Virus record (IMG/VR): IMGVR_UViG_2563366799_000009
Source of the DNA: a virus
Lineage: Duplodnaviria; Heunggongvirae; Uroviricota; Caudoviricetes
DNA: 46,457 nucleotides
Strand: one strand, 5' to 3'
Of this stretch, positions 28,877 to 37,383 are shown one piece after another (the first letter of the stretch is position 1; the number at the start of each line of letters is the position of its first letter). Below the pieces are notes generated by a model that saw nothing but the letters and a program-made list of their open reading frames with translations, was not told the DNA's origin and did no database searches. A program made the translations under genes and the position numbers.

Positions 28877-28944
28877 GGTCTCTCACCTCGCTGTGTGCGG
28901 GTGTTATTGAGGTAATAAAAAAGGCCGCTTGAGCGACCTCACGT

Positions 28945-29997
28945 TTATTCCCCTGTTAACGCCCTTATTTCCTCCACCGTCTGGCTAAACCTGTCCTCCT
29001 CGAGTTCAACGCCGATAGCCTGGCGGCCAAGTTCCAGCGCGATTTTCACGGTCGAACCGGACCCCATAAAGAAATCAGCCACCACATCACCAGGCTTACT
29101 GCTGGCGTTGATGATCTGCCGCAACATGTCAGCGGGTTTTTCGCATGGGTGTTTACCTGGGTAAAACTGAACGGGTTTATGTGTCCAGACGTCGGTATAA
29201 GGAACGGATACGGAAACAGAGAAATGCCGCCGAAGCGATTTGTACTCTTCGAGCAGCTCTGAATACTTGCGATTTAACGAATGCCACATAGCCACCAGCT
29301 GGTGGTGTGGTGTTGCCAGTTCGCCGTTCTGGTGCTTTTCGATGGCTACCTGCGTGAAAAGGGACTGAAGATTCCGGTAGTCTGATTCATTCGGTAATTG
29401 CCACTGGCTACCGCTGAACCAGTGAGACACCATGTTCTTCTTTCCAGTCGCATCGGCTATTTGTTTTGAGGTTATGCCAAGCGCTTCACGTGCATCCCGG
29501 AAATAAGAAATTAGGGGAGTCATTACATGCTGCTTCAGCTCGCTTCCCTTCTCAGCGTACCCGTCGCTCTTTGGTTTATACGGCCCCTGGTAATGCTCAG
29601 CGAACAGGATGCGCTCTGTTGCAGGGAAGTAAGAGCGCAGGCTCTCTTTATTACAGCCATTCCAGCGGCCCGACGGTTTAGCCCAGATGATGTGGTTCAG
29701 GACGTTGAACCGCTCACGCATCATGATCTCAATGTCTGCCGCCAGACGGTGACCTGAGAAAAGATAAAGACTGCCGGCAGGTTTAAGCACTCGCCAGAAT
29801 TGTGCGAGGCACATATCAAGCCAGCGAAGATAATCCTCATCCCCTTTCCATTGATTGTCCCAGCCGTTGGGTTTCACTTTGAAGTACGGTGGATCCGTGA
29901 CTATCAGGTCAATGGAGTTATCAGGGAGAGTTGCGATGTATTGCAGGCTATCAGCGTTGACTAACTCAACACTGTTTATAATTACAGTATTTTTCAT
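28945..29997 (-). CDS. DNA methyltransferase (N6A/N4C type, DPPY motif)
   Basis: 350 aa; DLIVTDPPY near the N-terminus and FFMGSGST near the C-terminus. Confidence 0.75.
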   Translation of the reverse strand: MKNTVIINSVELVNADSLQYIATLPDNSIDLIVTDPPYFKVKPNGWDNQWKGDEDYLRWLDMCLAQFWRVLKPAGSLYLFSGHRLAADIEIMMRERFNVLNHIIWAKPSGRWNGCNKESLRSYFPATERILFAEHYQGPYKPKSDGYAEKGSELKQHVMTPLISYFRDAREALGITSKQIADATGKKNMVSHWFSGSQWQLPNESDYRNLQSLFTQVAIEKHQNGELATPHHQLVAMWHSLNRKYSELLEEYKSLRRHFSVSVSVPYTDVWTHKPVQFYPGKHPCEKPADMLRQIINASSKPGDVVADFFMGSGSTVKIALELGRQAIGVELEEDRFSQTVEEIRALTGE

Positions 29998-30210
29998 AGA
30001 TCAGTAAGCGTAACTCTGATAGGCTCACTATGCTTTTGCGCTAAAGCGGTGGGCCTTGGTTAGCTTGTGACCTGAAAGCATGAGCTGATGGCTGGTGGGT
30101 GCTCCAACATCCACCAGCCGCCCATTTTCACAGCAGAAAGCCTCCGGATCTGGAGGCGCTCAATTATCCGAATGGAAAATCCGACATCCCGAGAAGACCG
30201 GGAGATAGCC

Positions 30211-30330: not shown

Positions 30331-31023
30331 TCACATTTCTACCACTTTAACTTCTTCGTACTCTTCGTACCGCGCCAGGCTTTCACGTAACGCCAGGCTG
30401 TCCATTTCCACGAAAGCTGCTTTAAATGCTGCCCAGTGAGCAGCGTATACCCTGAGCCAGGTTGAACGCTCCACGCTCACCATGCGGGCCAGTGCCGCCC
30501 CCGCATATTCCTGGTACGTATCGTTATTGCGTGATGCTGCAACTTCCTGGGCCGCGAGCCAGACAAGCCCCACTAATTTTTTTGTGACTCTGTCCTGGAG
30601 CTTCTTACTCCCCTGCTGATGCTGAAACTGTGCCCAAACGTACTGGCACATTAATGTCTGGTACCGGAAAGACAGATCATATCCATAGCAATACCGAACC
30701 CACGCCTGCAGATGCTCTCCAAGGCCATTTACCGAGCGGCGCCACGCAGAACTCGCAAACTCGGCATCCTTCATAGGGGGTAATGGGCGTCGACGGCTTC
30801 TTGTCTCCAGAACATAAAGCGGAGTGGCCAGAGTTTTTACAACCTTCGATCCACAACCTTCCCCACCCTCCATGACGATTTCTGGATGGTGCCGGGGATA
30901 CTTATTTTTATCTGCTGGTGGATGCTCACTGAACGCCTGTAGCTGTCCCTTCGTCGATCCTGAGAAATCGGCCAGCGCGCGGCGCAATTCAATACGGGTA
31001 TATTCGAGTTCTTGTAAATTCAT
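30331..31023 (-). CDS. Putative late-gene antiterminator (Q-like)
   Basis: 230 aa from ATG at 31023; assignment is mainly positional (immediately upstream of terminator plus late genes). Confidence 0.4.
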   Translation of the reverse strand: MNLQELEYTRIELRRALADFSGSTKGQLQAFSEHPPADKNKYPRHHPEIVMEGGEGCGSKVVKTLATPLYVLETRSRRRPLPPMKDAEFASSAWRRSVNGLGEHLQAWVRYCYGYDLSFRYQTLMCQYVWAQFQHQQGSKKLQDRVTKKLVGLVWLAAQEVAASRNNDTYQEYAGAALARMVSVERSTWLRVYAAHWAAFKAAFVEMDSLALRESLARYEEYEEVKVVEM

Positions 31024-31044
31024 AATGCTCAGCGCTCCATACAA

Positions 31045-32106
31045 TTACGCTTTCGTTATTACGCCGATCGCCAGCGCACGATTCATAAACCGGAACAGCA
31101 GCTCCAGCTGAGTACCGTGTTTTTTCTCAAACGCTGCTAAATCGGCATGTAGTTTGTCGTGACACTCTCTGCACAGAGGGAACACGAACAAATCGTGGGC
31201 TTTAGTGGCGGTACCGCCCATGCCGTGACCAATGACATGGTGTGGATCATCCGCTGGCCGCCGGCAAGCTTCACAGGGCTGGGTTTTAACCCACCGGGTA
31301 TAGTCTTCATTCACCCACCTGCGGTGTTTTGGGCGCAACATGAATGATTCAGGGGATTCAGGATCCGCATGCAGAGCCAGAACCTTTGGCTGGTCATAGG
31401 CCACATCCTGATTTGCTCCATGCTTTAATTTCGCAGCCGTGACCGCAGGGGTGACCTTCTTCTGCAAAATGCTTTTTGCGGGGGGCATCGGCACAATGTC
31501 ACTTTCTCGATATACGGATAAAAACGGCTCATCCGGTAATCGAAGCGCAAGCTGGGCCATCCTTTCCGTGACTGCATCAGCAATGCCTGAATAAACAGCC
31601 CACCAGCACAATTCACCGAGGGATAGTTCACGCTCGTTGTTGTAGCCAAGCGAAGACAGGATGGAACTGATCAGCCAGTTAATGAGATTACGCCGGGCCA
31701 GTTCTGCCAGCGCCGCGGTGGTTTGATCGCGCAGCTGGTTATCGCAATGCCAACAGAGCAACATTGATCCAGGGGGATGTCGCATCGTTACCAGCTCATG
31801 ATGGTGATAATCAGTATGCGGGTACTGGCATTCCTTCACGTTACGCTCTAACCAGGATTCCAACGCGTTCAAACCACCTGCTGCACGGATAACTCTCTCA
31901 TCTGTGAAGAATCCCTCGAGGGACTCATCTTCTGCCAGCGGCTGCCTGGCATCAGGGACGAGCCCCGACGGAAGTCCAGCCATGCTTTTTGGCTGAGGCT
32001 CCACCAGCACACGCCCCTGTTGAAACAGAGACATCAGTTCGCTACCCGGCTTTAACACCACAAGCCCCAGGCGCGGAACAGTCTCGGCTGTAAACAGTCC
32101 TCTCAC
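31045..32106 (-). CDS. DUF968 domain protein
   Basis: 353 aa; C-terminal Cys/His cluster CEACRRP…HHVIGHG…CRECHDKLH. Confidence 0.55.
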   Translation of the reverse strand: MRGLFTAETVPRLGLVVLKPGSELMSLFQQGRVLVEPQPKSMAGLPSGLVPDARQPLAEDESLEGFFTDERVIRAAGGLNALESWLERNVKECQYPHTDYHHHELVTMRHPPGSMLLCWHCDNQLRDQTTAALAELARRNLINWLISSILSSLGYNNERELSLGELCWWAVYSGIADAVTERMAQLALRLPDEPFLSVYRESDIVPMPPAKSILQKKVTPAVTAAKLKHGANQDVAYDQPKVLALHADPESPESFMLRPKHRRWVNEDYTRWVKTQPCEACRRPADDPHHVIGHGMGGTATKAHDLFVFPLCRECHDKLHADLAAFEKKHGTQLELLFRFMNRALAIGVITKA

Positions 32107-32795
32107 GCGGCATGCCCCTTAGCGATGTGTGCCGTCCACAGGCCGCCGATCCACTCGATGCCTTTGGGTGTAAAACGTGCCTGGCTAAAGGCGTAGTTTG
32201 TTTCACTCGTGGTGCCAGTTTTCACTTCAAACCGCCCGGCAGCAATGTGCTGGTGCCGCGGTGTCAGCACTCCACTGAGCCGGTACAAAATGCCGCTCTC
32301 AATGAGGAACAAGCGGAAATCGGTCTCTTTGGCCTGCAACAGCTTTGCCACCTGGCGGAAAGACATTGAACCTTTAGCAGTACAATACCGATCGACAAAC
32401 TCAACTTTCGGCGCGGCAGCGGCTAACTGCTGGGCCAGTTGTTCTTTCTGCTCGGCCAGATCCGCGGCGAGACGTAATGCCTCCGGCAATGTTTGCGGGA
32501 CACTTACGGCCTGACTGTTCTCCAGCTCTTGCCAGCGATCGACAACAGCGGCGGTAAATTCTGGCGACAGCCTGGCGACGATCACCAGAGAATCACGTTT
32601 GTTGAACCAATACTCCTCGTAGGTTTGCCCGTTTTGCGGGTGTGTGTAGGGGGTGTGCGCCAACGGCGCGGTTAAAATACCAGCAGATGCAAGGCGCTCA
32701 GCCGAGCGCTTCACATCACCATGTTTGCTCTGTACCAGCCTGGCAATTTCACGGCTGGACATTGTCACAACACCCTTTGCGGTTAACTGATTCAT
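32103..32795 (-). CDS. Phage antirepressor / regulatory protein (Rha N-terminal, KilA-C/AntA-like C-terminal)
   Basis: 230 aa; N-terminal SSREIARLVQSKHGDVKR pattern. Confidence 0.55.
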   Translation of the reverse strand: MNQLTAKGVVTMSSREIARLVQSKHGDVKRSAERLASAGILTAPLAHTPYTHPQNGQTYEEYWFNKRDSLVIVARLSPEFTAAVVDRWQELENSQAVSVPQTLPEALRLAADLAEQKEQLAQQLAAAAPKVEFVDRYCTAKGSMSFRQVAKLLQAKETDFRLFLIESGILYRLSGVLTPRHQHIAAGRFEVKTGTTSETNYAFSQARFTPKGIEWIGGLWTAHIAKGHAA

Positions 32796-32809: not shown

Positions 32810-33196
32810 TCAGGCGGCTGCACCCGCCGGTTCGTAAATGCTGATCGTTATTTCAACCTTTCCTTTCGGCACCACTGGCCCCCACTCCACCAGCATGCGC
32901 TTTACCTGGCTGTCGTCCTCCCACACGCCAGCATGTGTCAGCGCGTCAAACAGCGCGTTGTTGTAATTGTCCAGATCCCGACGGCGCATATCCGGAGGGA
33001 ACAGGGTGATTTCTACCGCGGCTGGTGCGGTAGTTGGTTTCGGTAAACGGCGCAGCTGCTCAATGATTGCGGCGCATGCGGCACTTTGATATTTGCGGCC
33101 TTCAGCACTGATTAAGTGGCGACCGGCCAGCGGCCCCTTATTAGGGGCTCGCCAGTAGGTGTTCACACTCGGAGGGAAAGGAAGCACCAGTTTCAC
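32810..33196 (-). CDS. rusA: RusA Holliday junction resolvase
   Basis: 128 aa; PPSVNTYWR…RRRDLDNY…FDALT…W.DD motifs match RusA. Confidence 0.8.
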   Translation of the reverse strand: MKLVLPFPPSVNTYWRAPNKGPLAGRHLISAEGRKYQSAACAAIIEQLRRLPKPTTAPAAVEITLFPPDMRRRDLDNYNNALFDALTHAGVWEDDSQVKRMLVEWGPVVPKGKVEITISIYEPAGAAA

Positions 33197-35127
33197 GCCA
33201 CCTCCTGCTGGTTGTCAGAACAGAACTCAGGAAGATTTGCCTCAACCAGCGCACGAGCGAACGGCGGCGGTACTGCGTTACCACAGCGCGCTACCTGCTT
33301 GTCTTTGGCGTAACGATTGCCGCGATAGTCCTGATCGATAACGTAGCCGTCAGGGAAGCCCTGCGCCTTATAAAGCTCATGCGGTTGCAGCATGCGCATT
33401 CCGATATCGACGATCTGGTACTTAACCCCCTCGATCGTCACCAGCCATTCATCCTCGCTATCACCGCAGTAGGTTTCGAGGAATGTCCGGACCTCGCCAA
33501 CGTGCTGGCCACCAGCGGTAATAGTCGGCATAGGTGTATCCATGGTCTGACCGTCGCGGCAGGTTCCGCGTAGCTTCACCAGGTGCGACGCAACTACCGC
33601 GTGGTGATCAACAGTAGTGACTGAGTGGGCAGGCTCATCCATACCAACACCCGGCCCCGTGTAATTCCCACCATAGTGCTTCGCCAGGAACGCGCTCACC
33701 GTTGCAAACTTATTACCACCAGCAGTGACCGTGCCGAGCGGGTTATTCAGTTGAATAACACGCGGTTCTTGCCCTGGGCGTTCGCCGTACCCCATCTGGA
33801 TCAGTGTTGGAGTTACCAGCTGCGACTTACCGCCACCACCAGCAGTAATCGTCGCGCTCGGTTCGTCAGCCCTGTGCCCAACACTGGCGCCAAACTGGCG
33901 GGCGATGACCGGAGCAACAACGCACGCGCGGGACTGCTTGAGGATTGTATGAGCGGGTTTATCCAGCGGGCGCGGCTTTGCCTGGTACTCACTGCCGCCA
34001 TTGCCAGCCAGGAACGGTGTCAGGGCGGCCTCAACTACGCCAAGCGCATGCCCATTCCCGCCTGGGCGCGCCGACGTACCAGCGGTGACAGTTGGAACCG
34101 GCTCGGTCACTGGCTGCCCGGTGGCCCCGGTGCGGAATTTAGTAAGATGCGGTACCGCCAGCGCGTAGCCATGCTTTTTAGTGATGGTCTGCAATGGCTC
34201 TAACAACGATTGCCCGCGGAAACAGTCATAACCTCCTTTCGTCGTGGTGTGGTTACACTTCACGATGAAAGGTGATGCACTTTCGATAACAAAGCGCTGG
34301 ATGCCGCGCGCGATACGTTTGAGCGTATTTTCCGCCAGCGGCTTTTTGCGGTCGAAGATGGAACGGGCCGGGATGTTCCAGTCAATGCACTCCGCCGCGG
34401 TACGCCATGGCGCCAGCTTGCCGCTTTGTACTTCCAGTGATTTTGGATCCCCATGAGTCGCTTCAGGCCAATGAATCTTGCGGCCGTCACAACGCATGAC
34501 CATGAAGAAACGCTTTCTGATCGTCGGCGCGCCGTAGTCACAAGCGCGCAGCTCACGATAATCGACCTCATAGCCAAGCCCGGCGATCAGCTGTTGCGCC
34601 TGCTGGCCGTGCGGCTCAATGGCAAGAAATTCACAAACCTCAGCCAGTGCTGGGTGATTCGCCGCGATACCAGTCGACAGCATGCCGACAAATGCCTCAA
34701 ATGTTTCACCAGCACGCTCAGGATCCGGGCGTAATTCTTCATCCAGCAGCGGGCCCCATGTCTTAAATTCTTCGACGTTCTCCAGCATCATGACGCGGGG
34801 ACATACTGACAGCGCCCAGCGCAGGACAATCCACGCCAGCCCGCGAATCTCTTTCTTAACCGGCTTAGCGCCCTTCGCTTTGGAAAAGTGGCGGCAGTCA
34901 GGGCTAAACCAGGCCAGACCGACAGGTTTACCGCTGGTGGCTGCACTTGGGTCAACGTCAAACACCGACTCGCAATAATGCAGCGTGTCCGGGTGATTCG
35001 TCTTATGCATCGCAATAGCGTTTTCGTCGTGGTTGATAGCGATATCCACGCTACGCCCGATCGCCAGTTCAATGCCGGTACTCGCGCCACCACCACCAGC
35101 AAAGTTATCAACGATAATTTCACGCAT
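33193..35127 (-). CDS. DNA (cytosine-5)-methyltransferase with four repeated TxTAGG modules (possibly multispecific)
   Basis: Start at ATG 35127 (MREIIVDNFAGGGG, motif I), SPDCRHFS, ENV; TVTAG/TITAGG/TVTAGG/TITAGG repeats in the variable region. Confidence 0.75.
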   Translation of the reverse strand: MREIIVDNFAGGGGASTGIELAIGRSVDIAINHDENAIAMHKTNHPDTLHYCESVFDVDPSAATSGKPVGLAWFSPDCRHFSKAKGAKPVKKEIRGLAWIVLRWALSVCPRVMMLENVEEFKTWGPLLDEELRPDPERAGETFEAFVGMLSTGIAANHPALAEVCEFLAIEPHGQQAQQLIAGLGYEVDYRELRACDYGAPTIRKRFFMVMRCDGRKIHWPEATHGDPKSLEVQSGKLAPWRTAAECIDWNIPARSIFDRKKPLAENTLKRIARGIQRFVIESASPFIVKCNHTTTKGGYDCFRGQSLLEPLQTITKKHGYALAVPHLTKFRTGATGQPVTEPVPTVTAGTSARPGGNGHALGVVEAALTPFLAGNGGSEYQAKPRPLDKPAHTILKQSRACVVAPVIARQFGASVGHRADEPSATITAGGGGKSQLVTPTLIQMGYGERPGQEPRVIQLNNPLGTVTAGGNKFATVSAFLAKHYGGNYTGPGVGMDEPAHSVTTVDHHAVVASHLVKLRGTCRDGQTMDTPMPTITAGGQHVGEVRTFLETYCGDSEDEWLVTIEGVKYQIVDIGMRMLQPHELYKAQGFPDGYVIDQDYRGNRYAKDKQVARCGNAVPPPFARALVEANLPEFCSDNQQEVA

Positions 35128-36454
35128 TGACGGCCCCCTGCATGCTGTTGAAGAGACCACCAGCGGTCGTGATAATTTCACTCGTCGGCATACGTTCGAG
35201 CCACAGCTGGTTGATATTGGCTTTCAGCTTGTTCTGTTGTGAAACAGGTAGAGCGTCAGCACCTTCAATCTGGTTAAACACCAGGCCAACCTCAAGAGGC
35301 CAAACGCGCGATTCGTTTAACGCCTTGTCCTTTGATTCCTGCGTCTCACGTACATGAGCGCGGATCCCCCGAATATTTGACCATTTGGCTTTATCCAGGC
35401 TTTCCATGGTCGCGATGAATTCACTGTAGTTGATGCCGTATTCTTTCGCAGATTCAACGGCAACCGTGCGAAGCCGCTCTGACATGTCTTGTTTCACGTC
35501 ATCGCTATCAAAGGGCAATGTTTCCAGCCATGCATTAACACCCACCAGGATGCTCTCGCTGATCAGCTTTTTCGCTCTATCGATCGTCAGCGGTGAAACA
35601 TTGGTAAATTCAGGGTTTTCCAGAGAGTCGGCAGCCCAGGTATGACCAAACTTTGACTCGCTGAAGGTGTACTCATCTTTCTCGCCGAACGCCGCGACAA
35701 CACAGGCCCAAGCTTCTACACCACTGGTTTCCAGAATGGCTTTTTGGGTTAATGGCAGTTCTGCCTCTGATTTCTCCGGCACTACCTCAGCGTCCAGCTC
35801 CGGCGCCGCATCAGTTTGCGTTCTTCCCACGGCAAACTGGGCCAGCGACATCGAAGCACGGCCTTTGGCCTCCAGGTCGGTGCGGTTGATGTAACTGAAA
35901 CGTTCACCCCGCCATGTTTTGTCGAAGACCACGATAGCGCCAGCAAAAAATGCGCTGGTTGGCTGCTGCTTTTCGTCTTTCGGCACGAACCATGTAGGAA
36001 GATCGAAACCAATTCGGCCACGGATGAATGTGACGTGATCTGCTTCTTCCGGCCACCACGTCTCACTCGTCGCAGACTTAATGAGAAAAACGTACCGCCC
36101 CCCCTTTTCTCGCATTGCCATAGCGTGGTTAATGATGTGGGTCATTCCGGTAATGGCCTGCTTGTCGTGATACTGAGAGCGGCTGTAAGGCGGGTTGCCA
36201 AACCCGGCACCACCGAGTTCTGCCAGACGCTCAGACCAATCCTGTGTCAGGGCATTATCTTCAGCCGTGTACCATGCTGGGCACTTCGCGTTGCTGTCGT
36301 CGGCAAAAAGGTCCAACACCAGAGGGCCGAACATCGCATTGATACCCCAAAACAACAGATCCGGAGTGCGCCATTGATCGCCGACCTCTTTCAACTCGTG
36401 GGCTGGTCTTGAACGCAGTTCAACCAGCGCGCGGCAGTATTTGCTTTCAATCAT
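35120..36454 (-). CDS. Phage Dam-like N6-adenine DNA methyltransferase (NPPY motif) with C-terminal extension
   Basis: 444 aa; WRTPDLLFW…FGNPPYS…; C-terminal ~200 aa of unknown function. Confidence 0.7.
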   Translation of the reverse strand: MIESKYCRALVELRSRPAHELKEVGDQWRTPDLLFWGINAMFGPLVLDLFADDSNAKCPAWYTAEDNALTQDWSERLAELGGAGFGNPPYSRSQYHDKQAITGMTHIINHAMAMREKGGRYVFLIKSATSETWWPEEADHVTFIRGRIGFDLPTWFVPKDEKQQPTSAFFAGAIVVFDKTWRGERFSYINRTDLEAKGRASMSLAQFAVGRTQTDAAPELDAEVVPEKSEAELPLTQKAILETSGVEAWACVVAAFGEKDEYTFSESKFGHTWAADSLENPEFTNVSPLTIDRAKKLISESILVGVNAWLETLPFDSDDVKQDMSERLRTVAVESAKEYGINYSEFIATMESLDKAKWSNIRGIRAHVRETQESKDKALNESRVWPLEVGLVFNQIEGADALPVSQQNKLKANINQLWLERMPTSEIITTAGGLFNSMQGAVNA

Positions 36455-37383
36455 CCTCTGAACCCCTCTGGAATTTTGGTATCTACCGGGCCGAACTTCA
36501 TCGGGTCATGTTTCTTCTCGCCCCAGCTTTCACGCGGGGGACGGCCTTTTTTATCCCAGCGGATCCCGCTTTGCAGATAACCCTCAAATTTTTTCGGCCC
36601 AAAGAGAGTTTCAGGCCGCATGTACTGATACTGCGCATCGTTGCCGTTCCAGTGTTCATGCTTGAGGTCAATCACCAGCGTCAAGTCGCTGACGGTATAA
36701 CCTTCACGCAGACGCGCACGTATGTTTTCCAAAGAGGTTTTAGATTTCTGGTACCGGGAGCCGCTAACCTGGTTCAAATGAGTTAAAACCAGGATGGCGT
36801 TATCAGTGATCAACACTTCAGGGTCTGGTTGCGGCGCAACCGGACAAGAGGGGTTAATGATCTGTTTGTGATGATCTGAGTAATGATCTGTATAGAGAAT
36901 AGGTTCCGCGACTTCGCGGTTAGGGTTCTGCGGTTCTGCGTTTTCGGTTCCGTGATTTTGCGGAATAGGTTCCGCGACTTCGCATTTCCCGTTCCGCGAT
37001 TCTGCGGAATCCAGTGTTACAGGGAATAAAACGTTAATTAGCGCTTCGCCGTTAATGCGGTAATGCGTTTTTTTTGTACCATTTACCTGGCGCTGGGTCT
37101 TTTGAACTACGTCAGGAAGCCAACGAGTGCAAATCTTGTTTACCAGGCGCTGTACCTGATCTTCACTTACCCCTCGAATCTCAGCGGCAAGCTCACTGTG
37201 TTCTTTGTAGAACCAGCCATCATTCAAGTCGGATTTACCCGACCAGAACACAAGTTGGTTTAGAACAGCACCTAAGGCATGCGCCTGCTGGTCACCTGAG
37301 AAAAAATCGAGGTAAGGCACCGGAATGGTGATGCAGTTCCGTTGTCCCGATAGCGATTGAACGATTTCAAATATCTGGCTCAT
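36451..37383 (-). CDS. Replication initiator / replisome organiser (O-like N-domain, DnaT-like conserved phage C-terminus)
   Basis: 310 aa; iterons inside the coding region encode an EVAEPI repeat. Confidence 0.65.
   Translation of the reverse strand: MSQIFEIVQSLSGQRNCITIPVPYLDFFSGDQQAHALGAVLNQLVFWSGKSDLNDGWFYKEHSELAAEIRGVSEDQVQRLVNKICTRWLPDVVQKTQRQVNGTKKTHYRINGEALINVLFPVTLDSAESRNGKCEVAEPIPQNHGTENAEPQNPNREVAEPILYTDHYSDHHKQIINPSCPVAPQPDPEVLITDNAILVLTHLNQVSGSRYQKSKTSLENIRARLREGYTVSDLTLVIDLKHEHWNGNDAQYQYMRPETLFGPKKFEGYLQSGIRWDKKGRPPRESWGEKKHDPMKFGPVDTKIPEGFRG
36855..37015. repeat. Candidate origin: iterons AATAGGTTCCGCGACTTCGC x2 with related half-repeats, flanked by TGATCTG x3 (three GATC sites)
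   Basis: Identical 20-mers at 36898 and 36964 (66-bp period); GGTTCTGCG x2; TTCCGYGATTYTGCGGAAT x2. Confidence 0.55.

What the first reader, a model, noticed from the sequence alone, without database searches (positions are those of the whole stretch)
33193..36454. Adjacent Dam-like N6A methyltransferase and C5 methyltransferase with four repeated TxTAGG modules (a third DPPY methyltransferase sits at 28945..29997)
Seen: 35120..36454 has the phage Dam-type NPPY motif plus a ~200-aa C-terminal extension; 33193..35127 has C5 motifs (FAGGGG, PDC, ENV) and, in the variable region, four spaced copies of P-x-x-T-[VI]-T-A-G-G; a third enzyme (DPPY, FFMGSGST) lies next to the late promoter. Established: multispecific C5 methyltransferases of Bacillus phages carry several target-recognition domains in tandem; phage orphan methyltransferases protect against host restriction. 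Inference: the C5 enzyme may be multispecific, giving the phage a broad anti-restriction methylation repertoire.
Basis: partly seen in the sequence, partly recalled or inferred. Interest (0 to 1): 0.6.

Follow-up and report, generated by a model that had tools for sequence, protein, structure and literature searches.

The report
Phage methylase trio, seven-module cytosine enzyme
A lambda-like prophage carries three DNA methylases, one of which has seven tandem recognition-type modules that relatives gain and lose whole, so it probably marks several DNA motifs to escape bacterial restriction enzymes, though this is untested.

Summary
On the minus strand lie a phage Dam-family N6A methylase (35120-36454), a C5 methylase (33193-35127) and a beta-class methylase (28945-29997).

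The C5 enzyme has seven tandem 32-48 aa modules built on P-x-x-T-[VI]-[TL], not four. Chance expects about 0.05.

- Close homologues differ by clean whole-module gains and losses: 14 architectures among 168 proteins.
- Each module is as conserved as the catalytic core.
- The wider family carries 1-12 modules.
- The layout matches the tandem target-recognising domains of Bacillus phage multispecific methylases. Module homology to them is unproven (hhalign probability 39%).
- AlphaFold could not model the array.
- Multispecificity is therefore the best-supported but untested reading.

- The third enzyme is 78% identical to M.EcoGII, the non-specific adenine methylase.
- The Dam "extension" ends in a conserved ~60 aa domain. 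In 65 of 80 related loci this domain sits directly against the C5 start codon, either free-standing or fused to unrelated adenine-methylase domains. Its function is unknown.

This is a new variant of a known kind. Interest is moderate.

The parts
33193..35127 (-). C5 cytosine DNA methyltransferase, 644 aa. The catalytic core is aa 1-300 and 567-636. The module array is aa 308-566.
   Evidence: PF00145 E 9.7e-20. All six diagnostic motifs are located. The AF2 catalytic domain has pLDDT 80-98 and matches 3G7U, DNMT1 and M.HhaI by Foldseek.
34111..34206 (-). Module 1 (aa 308-339), LLEPLQTITKKHGYALAVPHLTKFRTGATGQP. It holds a fixed first position in the enterobacterial clade.
   Evidence: HMM domain E 7e-11. 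This class always comes first in the array.
33967..34110 (-). Module 2 (aa 340-387), PVPTVTAGTSARPGGNGHALG..., with a long loop.
   Evidence: Domain E 9e-6. 93% identity across 168 homologues.
33871..33966 (-). Module 3 (aa 388-419), PAHTILKQSRACVVAPVIARQFG.
   Evidence: Domain E 5e-9. Cleanly absent from P0023 and P0068.
33751..33870 (-). Module 4 (aa 420-459), PSATITAGGGGKSQLVTPTLIQMGYGER.
   Evidence: Domain E 2e-11. Absent from P0095. In P0036, P0057 and P0066 its N-terminal half is joined in register to the C-terminal half of module 5.
33643..33750 (-). Module 5 (aa 460-495), PLGTVTAGGNKFATVSAFLAKHYGGNY.
   Evidence: Domain E 5e-14.
33544..33642 (-). Module 6 (aa 496-528), PAHSVTTVDHHAVVASHLVKLRG.
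   Evidence: Domain E 1.5e-14. It gives the best local BLAST match to the last TRD of rho11s and H2: 46% over 24 aa, E 0.006 in a three-sequence database. Relatives carry extra modules inserted just after it.
33430..33543 (-). Module 7 (aa 529-566), PMPTITAGGQHVGEVRTFLETYCG. This is the conserved penultimate class of the family. The usual last module (PLHTxTTKDRFGLV) is missing here.
   Evidence: Domain E 2e-10. This class is always near the end of the array.
35120..36454 (-). Phage Dam-family N6-adenine methyltransferase, 444 aa. Its stop codon overlaps the C5 start by 8 nt (ATGCGTGA).
   Evidence: PF05869 E 2e-43. TIGR01712 203.7 bits. Junction read directly from the sequence.
35321..35842 (-). 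Rare ~175 aa insert (aa 205-378) between the Dam domain and the tail. Function unknown.
   Evidence: No Pfam hit. Found only in phages Flotzy, Eeyore and Phi06_2987, and at 40% identity in Pantoea phage AH07. Absent from the 299-aa version in Enterobacter wuhouensis, L005.
35123..35314 (-). Conserved ~60 aa tail domain (aa 381-444, WPxEV...HINxxWLE...). It is genetically coupled to the C5 gene.
   Evidence: Found in 65 of 80 related genome loci, ending -13 to +11 nt from the C5 start. Thirty copies are free-standing and the rest are fused to Dam, MT-A70 or DPPH-type domains. In 79 of 80 viral contigs the free-standing form is followed by the C5 gene. Matches phrog_16025.
28945..29997 (-). M.EcoGII-type beta-class adenine methyltransferase, 350 aa, lying between the Q gene and the lysis genes.
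   Evidence: 78% identity over 348 aa to M.EcoGII (sequence from PMC11551740 Table S1). PF01555 E 9.4e-43, plus a weak HTH_3 hit at aa 167-197.
30140..30157 (-). Terminator-like hairpin between Q and the M.EcoGII-type gene. By position it is a candidate for the terminator that Q reads through.
   Evidence: Its role is inferred from position only.
28921..28940 (-). Terminator-like hairpin directly after the M.EcoGII-type gene.
30331..31044 (-). Q antiterminator gene (context).
   Evidence: PF06323 E 7e-40.
32810..33196 (-). RusA resolvase gene (context). Its start overlaps the C5 stop by 4 nt (GTGA).
   Evidence: PF05866 E 4.5e-15. Junction read from the sequence.

Best explanation
This is the anti-restriction methylation set of a lambda-like temperate phage of Enterobacteriaceae.

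The early operon runs replication gene, Dam-type gene, C5 gene, RusA, with overlapping stop and start codons. It encodes an orphan C5 methyltransferase. Between catalytic motifs VIII and IX this enzyme carries an array of seven plug-in modules. Each module has the P-x-x-T-[VI]-[TL] signature of a C5 target-recognising domain (TRD), followed by a variable loop and a beta-strand scaffold.

The most likely mechanism is the one shown for Bacillus phage multispecific methylases. One catalytic core uses several independent TRDs in turn, so the enzyme methylates several unrelated short motifs. Fresh phage DNA is then protected from many Type II enzymes at once.

The late-expressed M.EcoGII-type enzyme would methylate adenines in any context. 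The C5 enzyme would cover G+C-only sites that adenine methylation cannot protect.

Shown here: the gene identities, the module array, its modular evolution and its conservation.
Inferred: that several modules are active TRDs, the number of targets, the expression timing and the protective role.
For: - Seven modules lie far above chance.
- Among 168 homologues with at least 70% identity in the N-terminal domain there are 14 architectures built from about 19 module types. The differences are clean in-register indels of 32-39 aa.
- Middle module classes occur in either order across the family, while the first and last classes are fixed.
- Natural short relatives (434-517 aa) consist of a constant terminal pair plus 0-2 different plug-in modules.
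- Across 150 representatives clustered at 50% identity there are 1-12 modules, about 29 aa per module on a core of about 443 aa.
- Modules 1-6 are 89-93.5% identical across close homologues, against 86.5-90% for the catalytic parts.
- Non-synonymous divergence is 0.08-0.155 in those modules and 0.087-0.126 in the core, with synonymous sites saturated, over 62 orthologues.
- In SPR, rho11s and H2, every T-[LIV]-[TSN] motif in the variable region is spaced 30-48 aa from the next. This is taken as one per TRD.
- No restriction gene lies nearby.
- M.EcoGII identity is 78%. M.EcoGII is non-specific, and silent in the lysogen (PMC5778455).
- Tandem TRDs in Bacillus temperate phages are an accepted anti-restriction device (PMC12707154).
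Against: - No methylome or biochemical data exist for any member of this family in the literature searched.
- The module HMM does not significantly hit the Bacillus TRDs.
- hhalign gives only 39% probability (P 3e-4), although the alignment is in register.
- Both AlphaFold runs left the array below pLDDT 50, so nothing is known about how a module would reach the active site.
- Most family members have 6-8 modules. That is many more than the 2-3 active TRDs known per Bacillus enzyme, and the Bacillus enzymes also carry inactive pseudo-domains.
- In-register gain and loss is also typical of purely structural repeats.
Confidence: 0.6

Rival explanations
1. The modules are a structural repeat. Together they build one extended DNA-binding domain, so the enzyme has one target, possibly long or degenerate. 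Module number would tune affinity or footprint rather than add targets.
For: - First and last module classes keep fixed positions.
- Nearly all family members have at least 4 modules.
- In-register hybrids such as P0036 are typical of repeat proteins.
- There is no significant homology to proven TRDs.
Against: - Close relatives tolerate loss or gain of any one of several middle modules.
- Middle classes occur in both orders.
- AlphaFold, which in general experience often models solenoid-type repeats well, found no packed repeat structure. This is weak evidence.
- From established knowledge of M.HhaI, every module keeps the Thr-hydrophobic pair that in solved C5 methylases sits at the flipped base. 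Only one such pair can be there at a time.
Confidence: 0.2
2. Only one or two modules are active TRDs. The rest are inactive pseudo-domains or spacers, as described for some Bacillus phage enzymes, so the enzyme is mono- or bispecific.
For: - From my own knowledge, pseudo-domains exist in rho11s and phi3T-type enzymes (Lange et al. 1991).
- rho11s and H2 show four motif-bearing modules here, against what I recall as two to three known targets.
Against: Modules 1-6 are each as conserved as the catalytic core across 62-168 homologues from many genera. Decaying relics would not be expected to behave this way.
Confidence: 0.15
3. The methylases serve the phage's own biology, for example replication, packaging or gene timing, rather than anti-restriction.
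For: - P1 needs Dam methylation for packaging (PMC12707154).
- The genes sit among replication and recombination genes.
Against: - An M.EcoGII-type non-specific enzyme and a variable, shuffled module array fit an arms race better than a fixed regulatory site.
- Only 13 of 5,426 complete E. coli genomes carry this DNA segment at megablast level, which argues against an essential role.
Confidence: 0.05

Closest known systems
Multispecific C5 methyltransferases of Bacillus temperate phages (M.SPRI, M.Phi3TI, M.Rho11sI, M.H2I)
   Same: - Orphan phage enzyme with one C5 catalytic core.
- Several tandem modules of about 30-50 aa between motifs VIII and IX, each with a (S/E)P-x-x-T-[LIV]-[TS] signature.
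- Module content differs between related phages (PMC12707154).
   Different: - No tblastn match between the families at E 1e-5 among the organisms and rows listed.
- Module homology is not demonstrable.
- Motif IV reads PDC rather than PCQ.
- Seven modules here and up to 12 in relatives, against 3-4.
- The hosts are Gram-negative.
- A coupled upstream tail domain is present.
- Activity is untested.
M.(phi)BssHII of a Bacillus stearothermophilus prophage (five targets)
   Same: A prophage C5 enzyme with many TRDs. It is cited in PMC8936443. Firmicute (Paenibacillus) members of the present family are 47-49% identical to the window enzyme.
   Different: I could not obtain its sequence, so any relationship to this family is an untested lead.
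M.EcoGII / M.EcoGI (non-specific adenine methyltransferase of E. coli O104:H4 prophages)
   Same: - The third enzyme is 78% identical over its full length.
- 350 aa against 349 aa.
- DPPY near the N-terminus and FxGxG near the C-terminus, with a central helix-turn-helix region.
- Located in a prophage.
   Different: Non-specificity has not been tested for this orthologue.
Phage P1 Dmt (bifunctional N6A plus C5 methyltransferase)
   Same: A temperate phage that pairs adenine and cytosine methylation in one expression unit.
   Different: P1 fuses the two activities in the order C5 then Dam. It uses the classical Dam family and has no module array. BLAST to the window proteins finds only motif IX, and the module HMM gives no hits.
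Two-polypeptide C5 methyltransferases (M.AquI, M.EcoHK31I)
   Same: A small co-encoded polypeptide works with the C5 enzyme (my own knowledge). This is a possible analogy for the coupled tail domain.
   Different: In those enzymes the second polypeptide supplies missing catalytic motifs. Here all motifs are already in the large protein. The tail has no recognisable fold or family.

Membership tests
C5 cytosine DNA methyltransferases (PF00145) | Conserved motifs I (FxGxG), IV (PC with catalytic Cys), VI (ENV), VIII (QxRxR-like), IX and X, in the canonical order | tested here: met
   FAGGGG aa 9-14, SPDCRHFS aa 75-82 (Cys78), ENV aa 116-118, TIRKR aa 202-206, RMLQPHELYKAQGFP aa 578-592, GNAVPP aa 616-621. 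Pfam scores 71.7 bits against a cut-off of 22.
C5 cytosine DNA methyltransferases (PF00145) | Rossmann-type catalytic fold shared with M.HhaI and DNMT1 | tested here: met
   AF2 gives pLDDT 80-98 for aa 1-277 and 572-638. Foldseek probability is 1.00 to 3G7U, DNMT1 and M.HhaI.
Multispecific phage C5 methyltransferases (SPR class) | Several tandem TRD-sized modules, each with a Thr-[LIV] motif, between motifs VIII and IX | tested here: met
   Seven modules of 32-48 aa. The motif and spacing match those read from SPR, rho11s and H2.
Multispecific phage C5 methyltransferases (SPR class) | Modules are separable: they can be added, removed or reordered without destroying the enzyme | tested here: inconclusive
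   Natural variants show clean whole-module indels, and some module classes occur in either order. The activity of those variants is unknown.
Multispecific phage C5 methyltransferases (SPR class) | Sequence homology to the Bacillus phage enzymes | tested here: not met
   No Bacillus phage hit appears among the organisms and rows listed by tblastn. The module HMM scores 1-4 bits on the Bacillus enzymes. hhalign probability is 39%. The window enzyme therefore works like this class at the level of architecture but is not filed as a member.
Multispecific phage C5 methyltransferases (SPR class) | Methylation of several unrelated target sequences by one polypeptide | not testable with these tools
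   Needs 5mC mapping of DNA modified by the expressed enzyme.
M.EcoGII family (non-specific beta-class adenine methyltransferase) | Full-length similarity, DPPY-TRD-FxGxG order, central helix-turn-helix TRD | tested here: met
   78% identity over 348 aa. PF01555 with a weak HTH_3 hit at aa 167-197. PMC11551740 places the TRD of M.EcoGII at residues 160-237.
M.EcoGII family (non-specific beta-class adenine methyltransferase) | Methylates adenine in any sequence context | not testable with these tools
   Inferred from orthology only.
Phage N6-adenine methyltransferase (PF05869 / TIGR01712) | Family model above the curated cut-off, with the NPPY catalytic motif | tested here: met
   148.4 bits against 28.1. 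203.7 bits against 97.05, equivalog model. NPPY at aa 87. Target sequence not tested.

The most novel reading that the evidence does not exclude
This very large and uncharacterised family has 2,563 clusters at E below 1e-30 and spans Proteobacteria and Firmicutes. It may be a combinatorial TRD-cassette system in which most of the 4-12 modules per enzyme are active. The window enzyme would then methylate four or more unrelated motifs. The conserved ~60 aa tail domain, encoded against the C5 start codon, may be a dedicated adaptor or accessory subunit that docks an adenine methylase, or acts alone, on the C5 enzyme.
Probability: 0.3. Interest if true: 0.75.

Novelty: new variant of a known kind. 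Interest (0 to 1): 0.55.

Why it matters
If the modules are active TRDs, this family would extend multispecific cytosine methylation in two ways. It would move from a handful of Bacillus phages to a widespread class of prophage enzymes in Enterobacteriaceae and beyond. It would also show far larger arrays than any studied so far.

That has three consequences.
- It bears on how temperate phages cross restriction barriers between clinical Enterobacter, Klebsiella, Salmonella and E. coli strains.
- The natural module-deletion series gives a ready-made map for assigning a target to each module.
- It offers a scaffold for engineering methylases with chosen sets of targets.

The pairing with an M.EcoGII-type enzyme suggests a division of labour: any adenine, plus G+C-only sites.

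The tail domain is a separate small open question. It concerns how adenine and cytosine methylases are coupled.

Tried and rejected
- **Structure prediction.** AlphaFold2 on the window enzyme used 68 sequences. A second run used a natural 435-aa minimal relative with 73 sequences. Both modelled the catalytic domain well and left the whole module region below pLDDT 50. No structural reading of the modules is offered.
- **Solved structures.** Searches with the array and with a 52-module profile found nothing meaningful.
- **Homology to Bacillus TRDs.** The module HMM against SPR, rho11s, H2 and a remembered M.HhaI sequence scored near zero. hhalign of the modules against Bacillus TRDs gave 39% probability. 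Homology is not claimed.
- **Module clustering.** Single-linkage clustering chained nearly all modules into one type. It was replaced by average linkage.
- **Literature.** Seven searches found no study of this family. The classic Trautner papers, the phi-BssHII paper and the Murphy 2013 review are not held.
- **P1 Dmt.** Tested as a possible fused version of this gene pair. It is unrelated in both halves and has the opposite domain order.
- **Defence-system models.** PADLOC gave only generic methylase hits and no sign of a defence system.
- **Database names.** Names for the exact proteins are all generic.
- **Recent duplication.** Rejected as the origin of the repeat, because DNA repeats are limited to about 19-27 nt.
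- **dS estimates.** Synonymous sites are saturated (pS about 0.7), so the dN/dS values are rough.


Full report
**Setting.** The region from 27.5 to 38.5 kb is the early-right and late-control region of a lambda-like prophage, read on the minus strand. The gene order is as follows:

| Coordinates | Gene |
|---|---|
| 36451-37383 | replication protein (Phg_2220_C) |
| 35120-36454 | Dam-family methylase |
| 33193-35127 | C5 methylase |
| 32810-33196 | RusA |
| 32103-32795 | Rha/KilAC antirepressor |
| 31045-32106 | DUF968 protein |
| 30331-31044 | Q antiterminator |
| 28945-29997 | beta-class methylase |
| downstream | ORFs read as holin and lysozyme from their sequence and position (no family scan) |

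- The 3.3-kb segment is 97-98% identical to Escherichia phages Flotzy, Eeyore and Phi06_2987.
- It occurs in only 13 of 5,426 complete E. coli genomes.
- The best genome match for the C5 gene is Enterobacter wuhouensis, at 98%.
- The exact proteins are already in public databases under generic names.

**Check of the observation.** All three genes and all quoted motifs are present.

- The C5 start is the ATG at 35127, as in all homologues.
- The repeat is real. T[VI]TAG occurs four times, against 0.004 expected. P..T[VI][TL] occurs six times, against 0.047 expected.
A module HMM finds seven modules at aa 308-566, spaced 32-48 aa, each with a significant domain score.
- The HMM consensus is LDEPLPTVTAGDHHALVAAFLAKYYGGSR. 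It reads as an acidic residue, Pro, two residues, Thr-[VI]-Thr, a variable loop of 5-14 residues, a hydrophobic strand, and a Gly-rich linker.
- Only about 19-27 nt around the motif repeat at the DNA level, so the modules are old.

**What the family shows.** The enzyme belongs to a very large family, with 2,563 clusters at E below 1e-30 in a 50%-identity library. Hosts run from Enterobacteriaceae to Paenibacillus, Burkholderia and Vibrio, and the family occurs in many phages.

- Lengths track module number. There are 1-12 modules, most often 6-8, at about 29 aa each on a core of about 443 aa.
- Among 168 proteins at least 70% identical to the window enzyme in the N-terminal domain, there are 14 architectures drawn from about 19 module types.
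- The differences are clean in-register indels of one module:
  - module 3 is missing in P0023 and P0068;
  - module 4 is missing in P0095;
  - a 4/5 hybrid replaces both in P0036, P0057 and P0066;
  - an extra module follows module 6 in P0002, P0010, P0012, P0035 and P0050.
- A Shewanella/Vibrio series of 434-517 aa shows a constant terminal pair plus zero, one or two different plug-in modules.
- Across the family the first classes and the last two classes keep their places. Middle classes occur in either order.
- Modules 1-6 are as conserved as the catalytic core: 89-93.5% against 86.5-90% identity. Non-synonymous divergence is 0.08-0.155 against 0.087-0.126, with saturated synonymous sites, over 62 orthologues. 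They are not decaying relics.

**Comparison with the known multispecific enzymes.** I fetched the SPR, rho11s and H2 genes.

- In their variable regions these enzymes carry three to four T-[LIV]-[TSN] motifs, mostly preceded by (S/E)-P, spaced 30-48 aa apart. I take these as one per TRD. This is the same plan as here.
- The best local match between the two families is module to module. Window aa 497-520 matches the last TRD of rho11s and H2 at 46% identity, E 0.006 in a three-sequence database.
- Homology is not established beyond that. The module HMM does not hit the Bacillus enzymes. Profile-profile comparison aligns them in register at only 39% probability.
- From established knowledge of M.HhaI, the Thr-Leu pair of the TRD sits next to the flipped cytosine and is the one feature shared by C5 TRDs. 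Seven such pairs therefore mean seven candidate TRDs. I did not test this here.

**Structure.** Two AlphaFold2 runs, one on the window enzyme and one on a natural 435-aa relative, gave confident catalytic domains. Both left the whole variable region below pLDDT 50.

- Foldseek places the catalytic domain with 3G7U, DNMT1 and M.HhaI.
- Neither the array nor a module profile matches any solved chain by sequence.
- How a module reaches the active site is unknown.

**The other two enzymes.**

- The third enzyme is 78% identical over its full length to M.EcoGII (sequence from PMC11551740 Table S1).
- M.EcoGII methylates adenine in any context, is prophage-borne, and is silent in the lysogen and harmful when expressed constitutively (PMC5778455).
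- The third enzyme is about 81% identical to the methylase found between Q and the lysis genes in phages cdtI, SfV, mEp460 and Stx2c phages.
- Terminator-like hairpins lie just upstream (30157-30140) and just downstream (28940-28921) of its gene. This fits Q-dependent late expression, which is inferred.
- The Dam-type enzyme meets the equivalog model for phage N6A methylases. GATC specificity is likely from characterised relatives, by my own knowledge, but was not tested.

**An unexpected feature.** The Dam "extension" has two parts.

- Residues 205-378 are a rare insert. It is found only in the three near-identical E. coli phages and, at 40% identity, in Pantoea phage AH07.
- Residues 381-444 are a conserved domain with no Pfam or PDB match. 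It corresponds to phrog_16025.
- In 65 of 80 related genome loci a homologue of this tail ends -13 to +11 nt from the C5 start, usually with a 4- or 8-nt overlap.
- Its carriers differ:

| Form of the tail | Loci |
|---|---|
| free-standing, about 85 aa | 30 |
| fused to a Dam domain | 26 |
| fused to an unclassified DPPH-motif domain | 6 |
| fused to an MT-A70 domain | 1 |
| other | 2 |

- In 79 of 80 viral contigs the free-standing form is followed at once by the C5 gene.
- One counter-example is Salmonella phage ST64B. There, Dam plus tail is followed by RusA with no C5 gene.
- The simplest reading is an accessory or docking domain linking an adenine methylase to the C5 enzyme. This is a guess.

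**Mechanism and rivals.** I rate a multispecific, several-TRD enzyme at about 0.6.

- The main rival is a structural repeat forming one DNA-binding domain, at about 0.2.
- Next is a mostly inactive array with one or two live TRDs, at about 0.15. The conservation data argue against it.
- A purely phage-internal role is unlikely, at about 0.05.
- The inferred division of labour is that non-specific adenine methylation cannot protect sites made only of G and C, which are the classic targets of C5 enzymes.
- A cost is that 5mC exposes DNA to Type IV enzymes such as McrBC (established knowledge).

**Novelty and verdict.** The principle has been known from Bacillus phages since the 1980s. I found no study of this family. 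It differs from the Bacillus class in sequence, in array size and in the coupled tail domain. It is best called a new variant of a known kind, of moderate interest, and it is directly testable with current 5mC mapping.

Noticed in passing
window 35123-35314 (- strand); L005-L084, L087-L166: The last ~60 aa of the Dam-type protein form a separate conserved domain. In 65 of 80 related genome loci this domain abuts the C5 methylase start codon. It is free-standing (about 85 aa) or fused to Dam, MT-A70 or an unclassified DPPH-motif domain. It has no Pfam or PDB match. Phage ST64B has it on Dam without a C5 gene.
   Followed up: partly
window 35321-35842 (- strand): A ~175 aa insert between the Dam domain and the tail has no family match. 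It is found only in phages Flotzy, Eeyore and Phi06_2987 and, at 40% identity, inside a 'chromosome partitioning protein' gene of Pantoea phage AH07.
   Followed up: partly
L017, L025, L038, L039, L040, L051 (ORFs ending at the C5 start): A ~165 aa domain (ILDMCCGSRMFW...VFDPPH...) looks like a small SAM-dependent methylase but has no Pfam hit. It carries the same tail and sits upstream of the C5 gene in Atlantibacter, Franconibacter and related genomes.
   Followed up: no
window 34582-34743 (C5 aa 129-182): The segment between motifs VI and VIII is the least conserved part of the catalytic region (68.5% identity). In some homologues (P0006, P0057, P0066, P0068) it holds an extra ~24 aa insertion.
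   Followed up: no
protein cluster: The 444-aa Dam-type protein and the 644-aa C5 protein fall in the same 90%-identity cluster of the protein collection. Some database member may therefore be a read-through or fused Dam-C5 product.
   Followed up: no
window 31045-32106 (- strand): The DUF968 protein has a weak HNH-nuclease match (HNHc_6, E 0.0037). It recurs downstream of the C5 gene in 26 of 80 related loci.
   Followed up: no
window 28921-28940 and 30140-30157 (- strand): Terminator-like hairpins bracket the M.EcoGII-type gene. Eight terminator-like sites were found in 1.7 kb, against 1.8 expected from shuffles.
   Followed up: no
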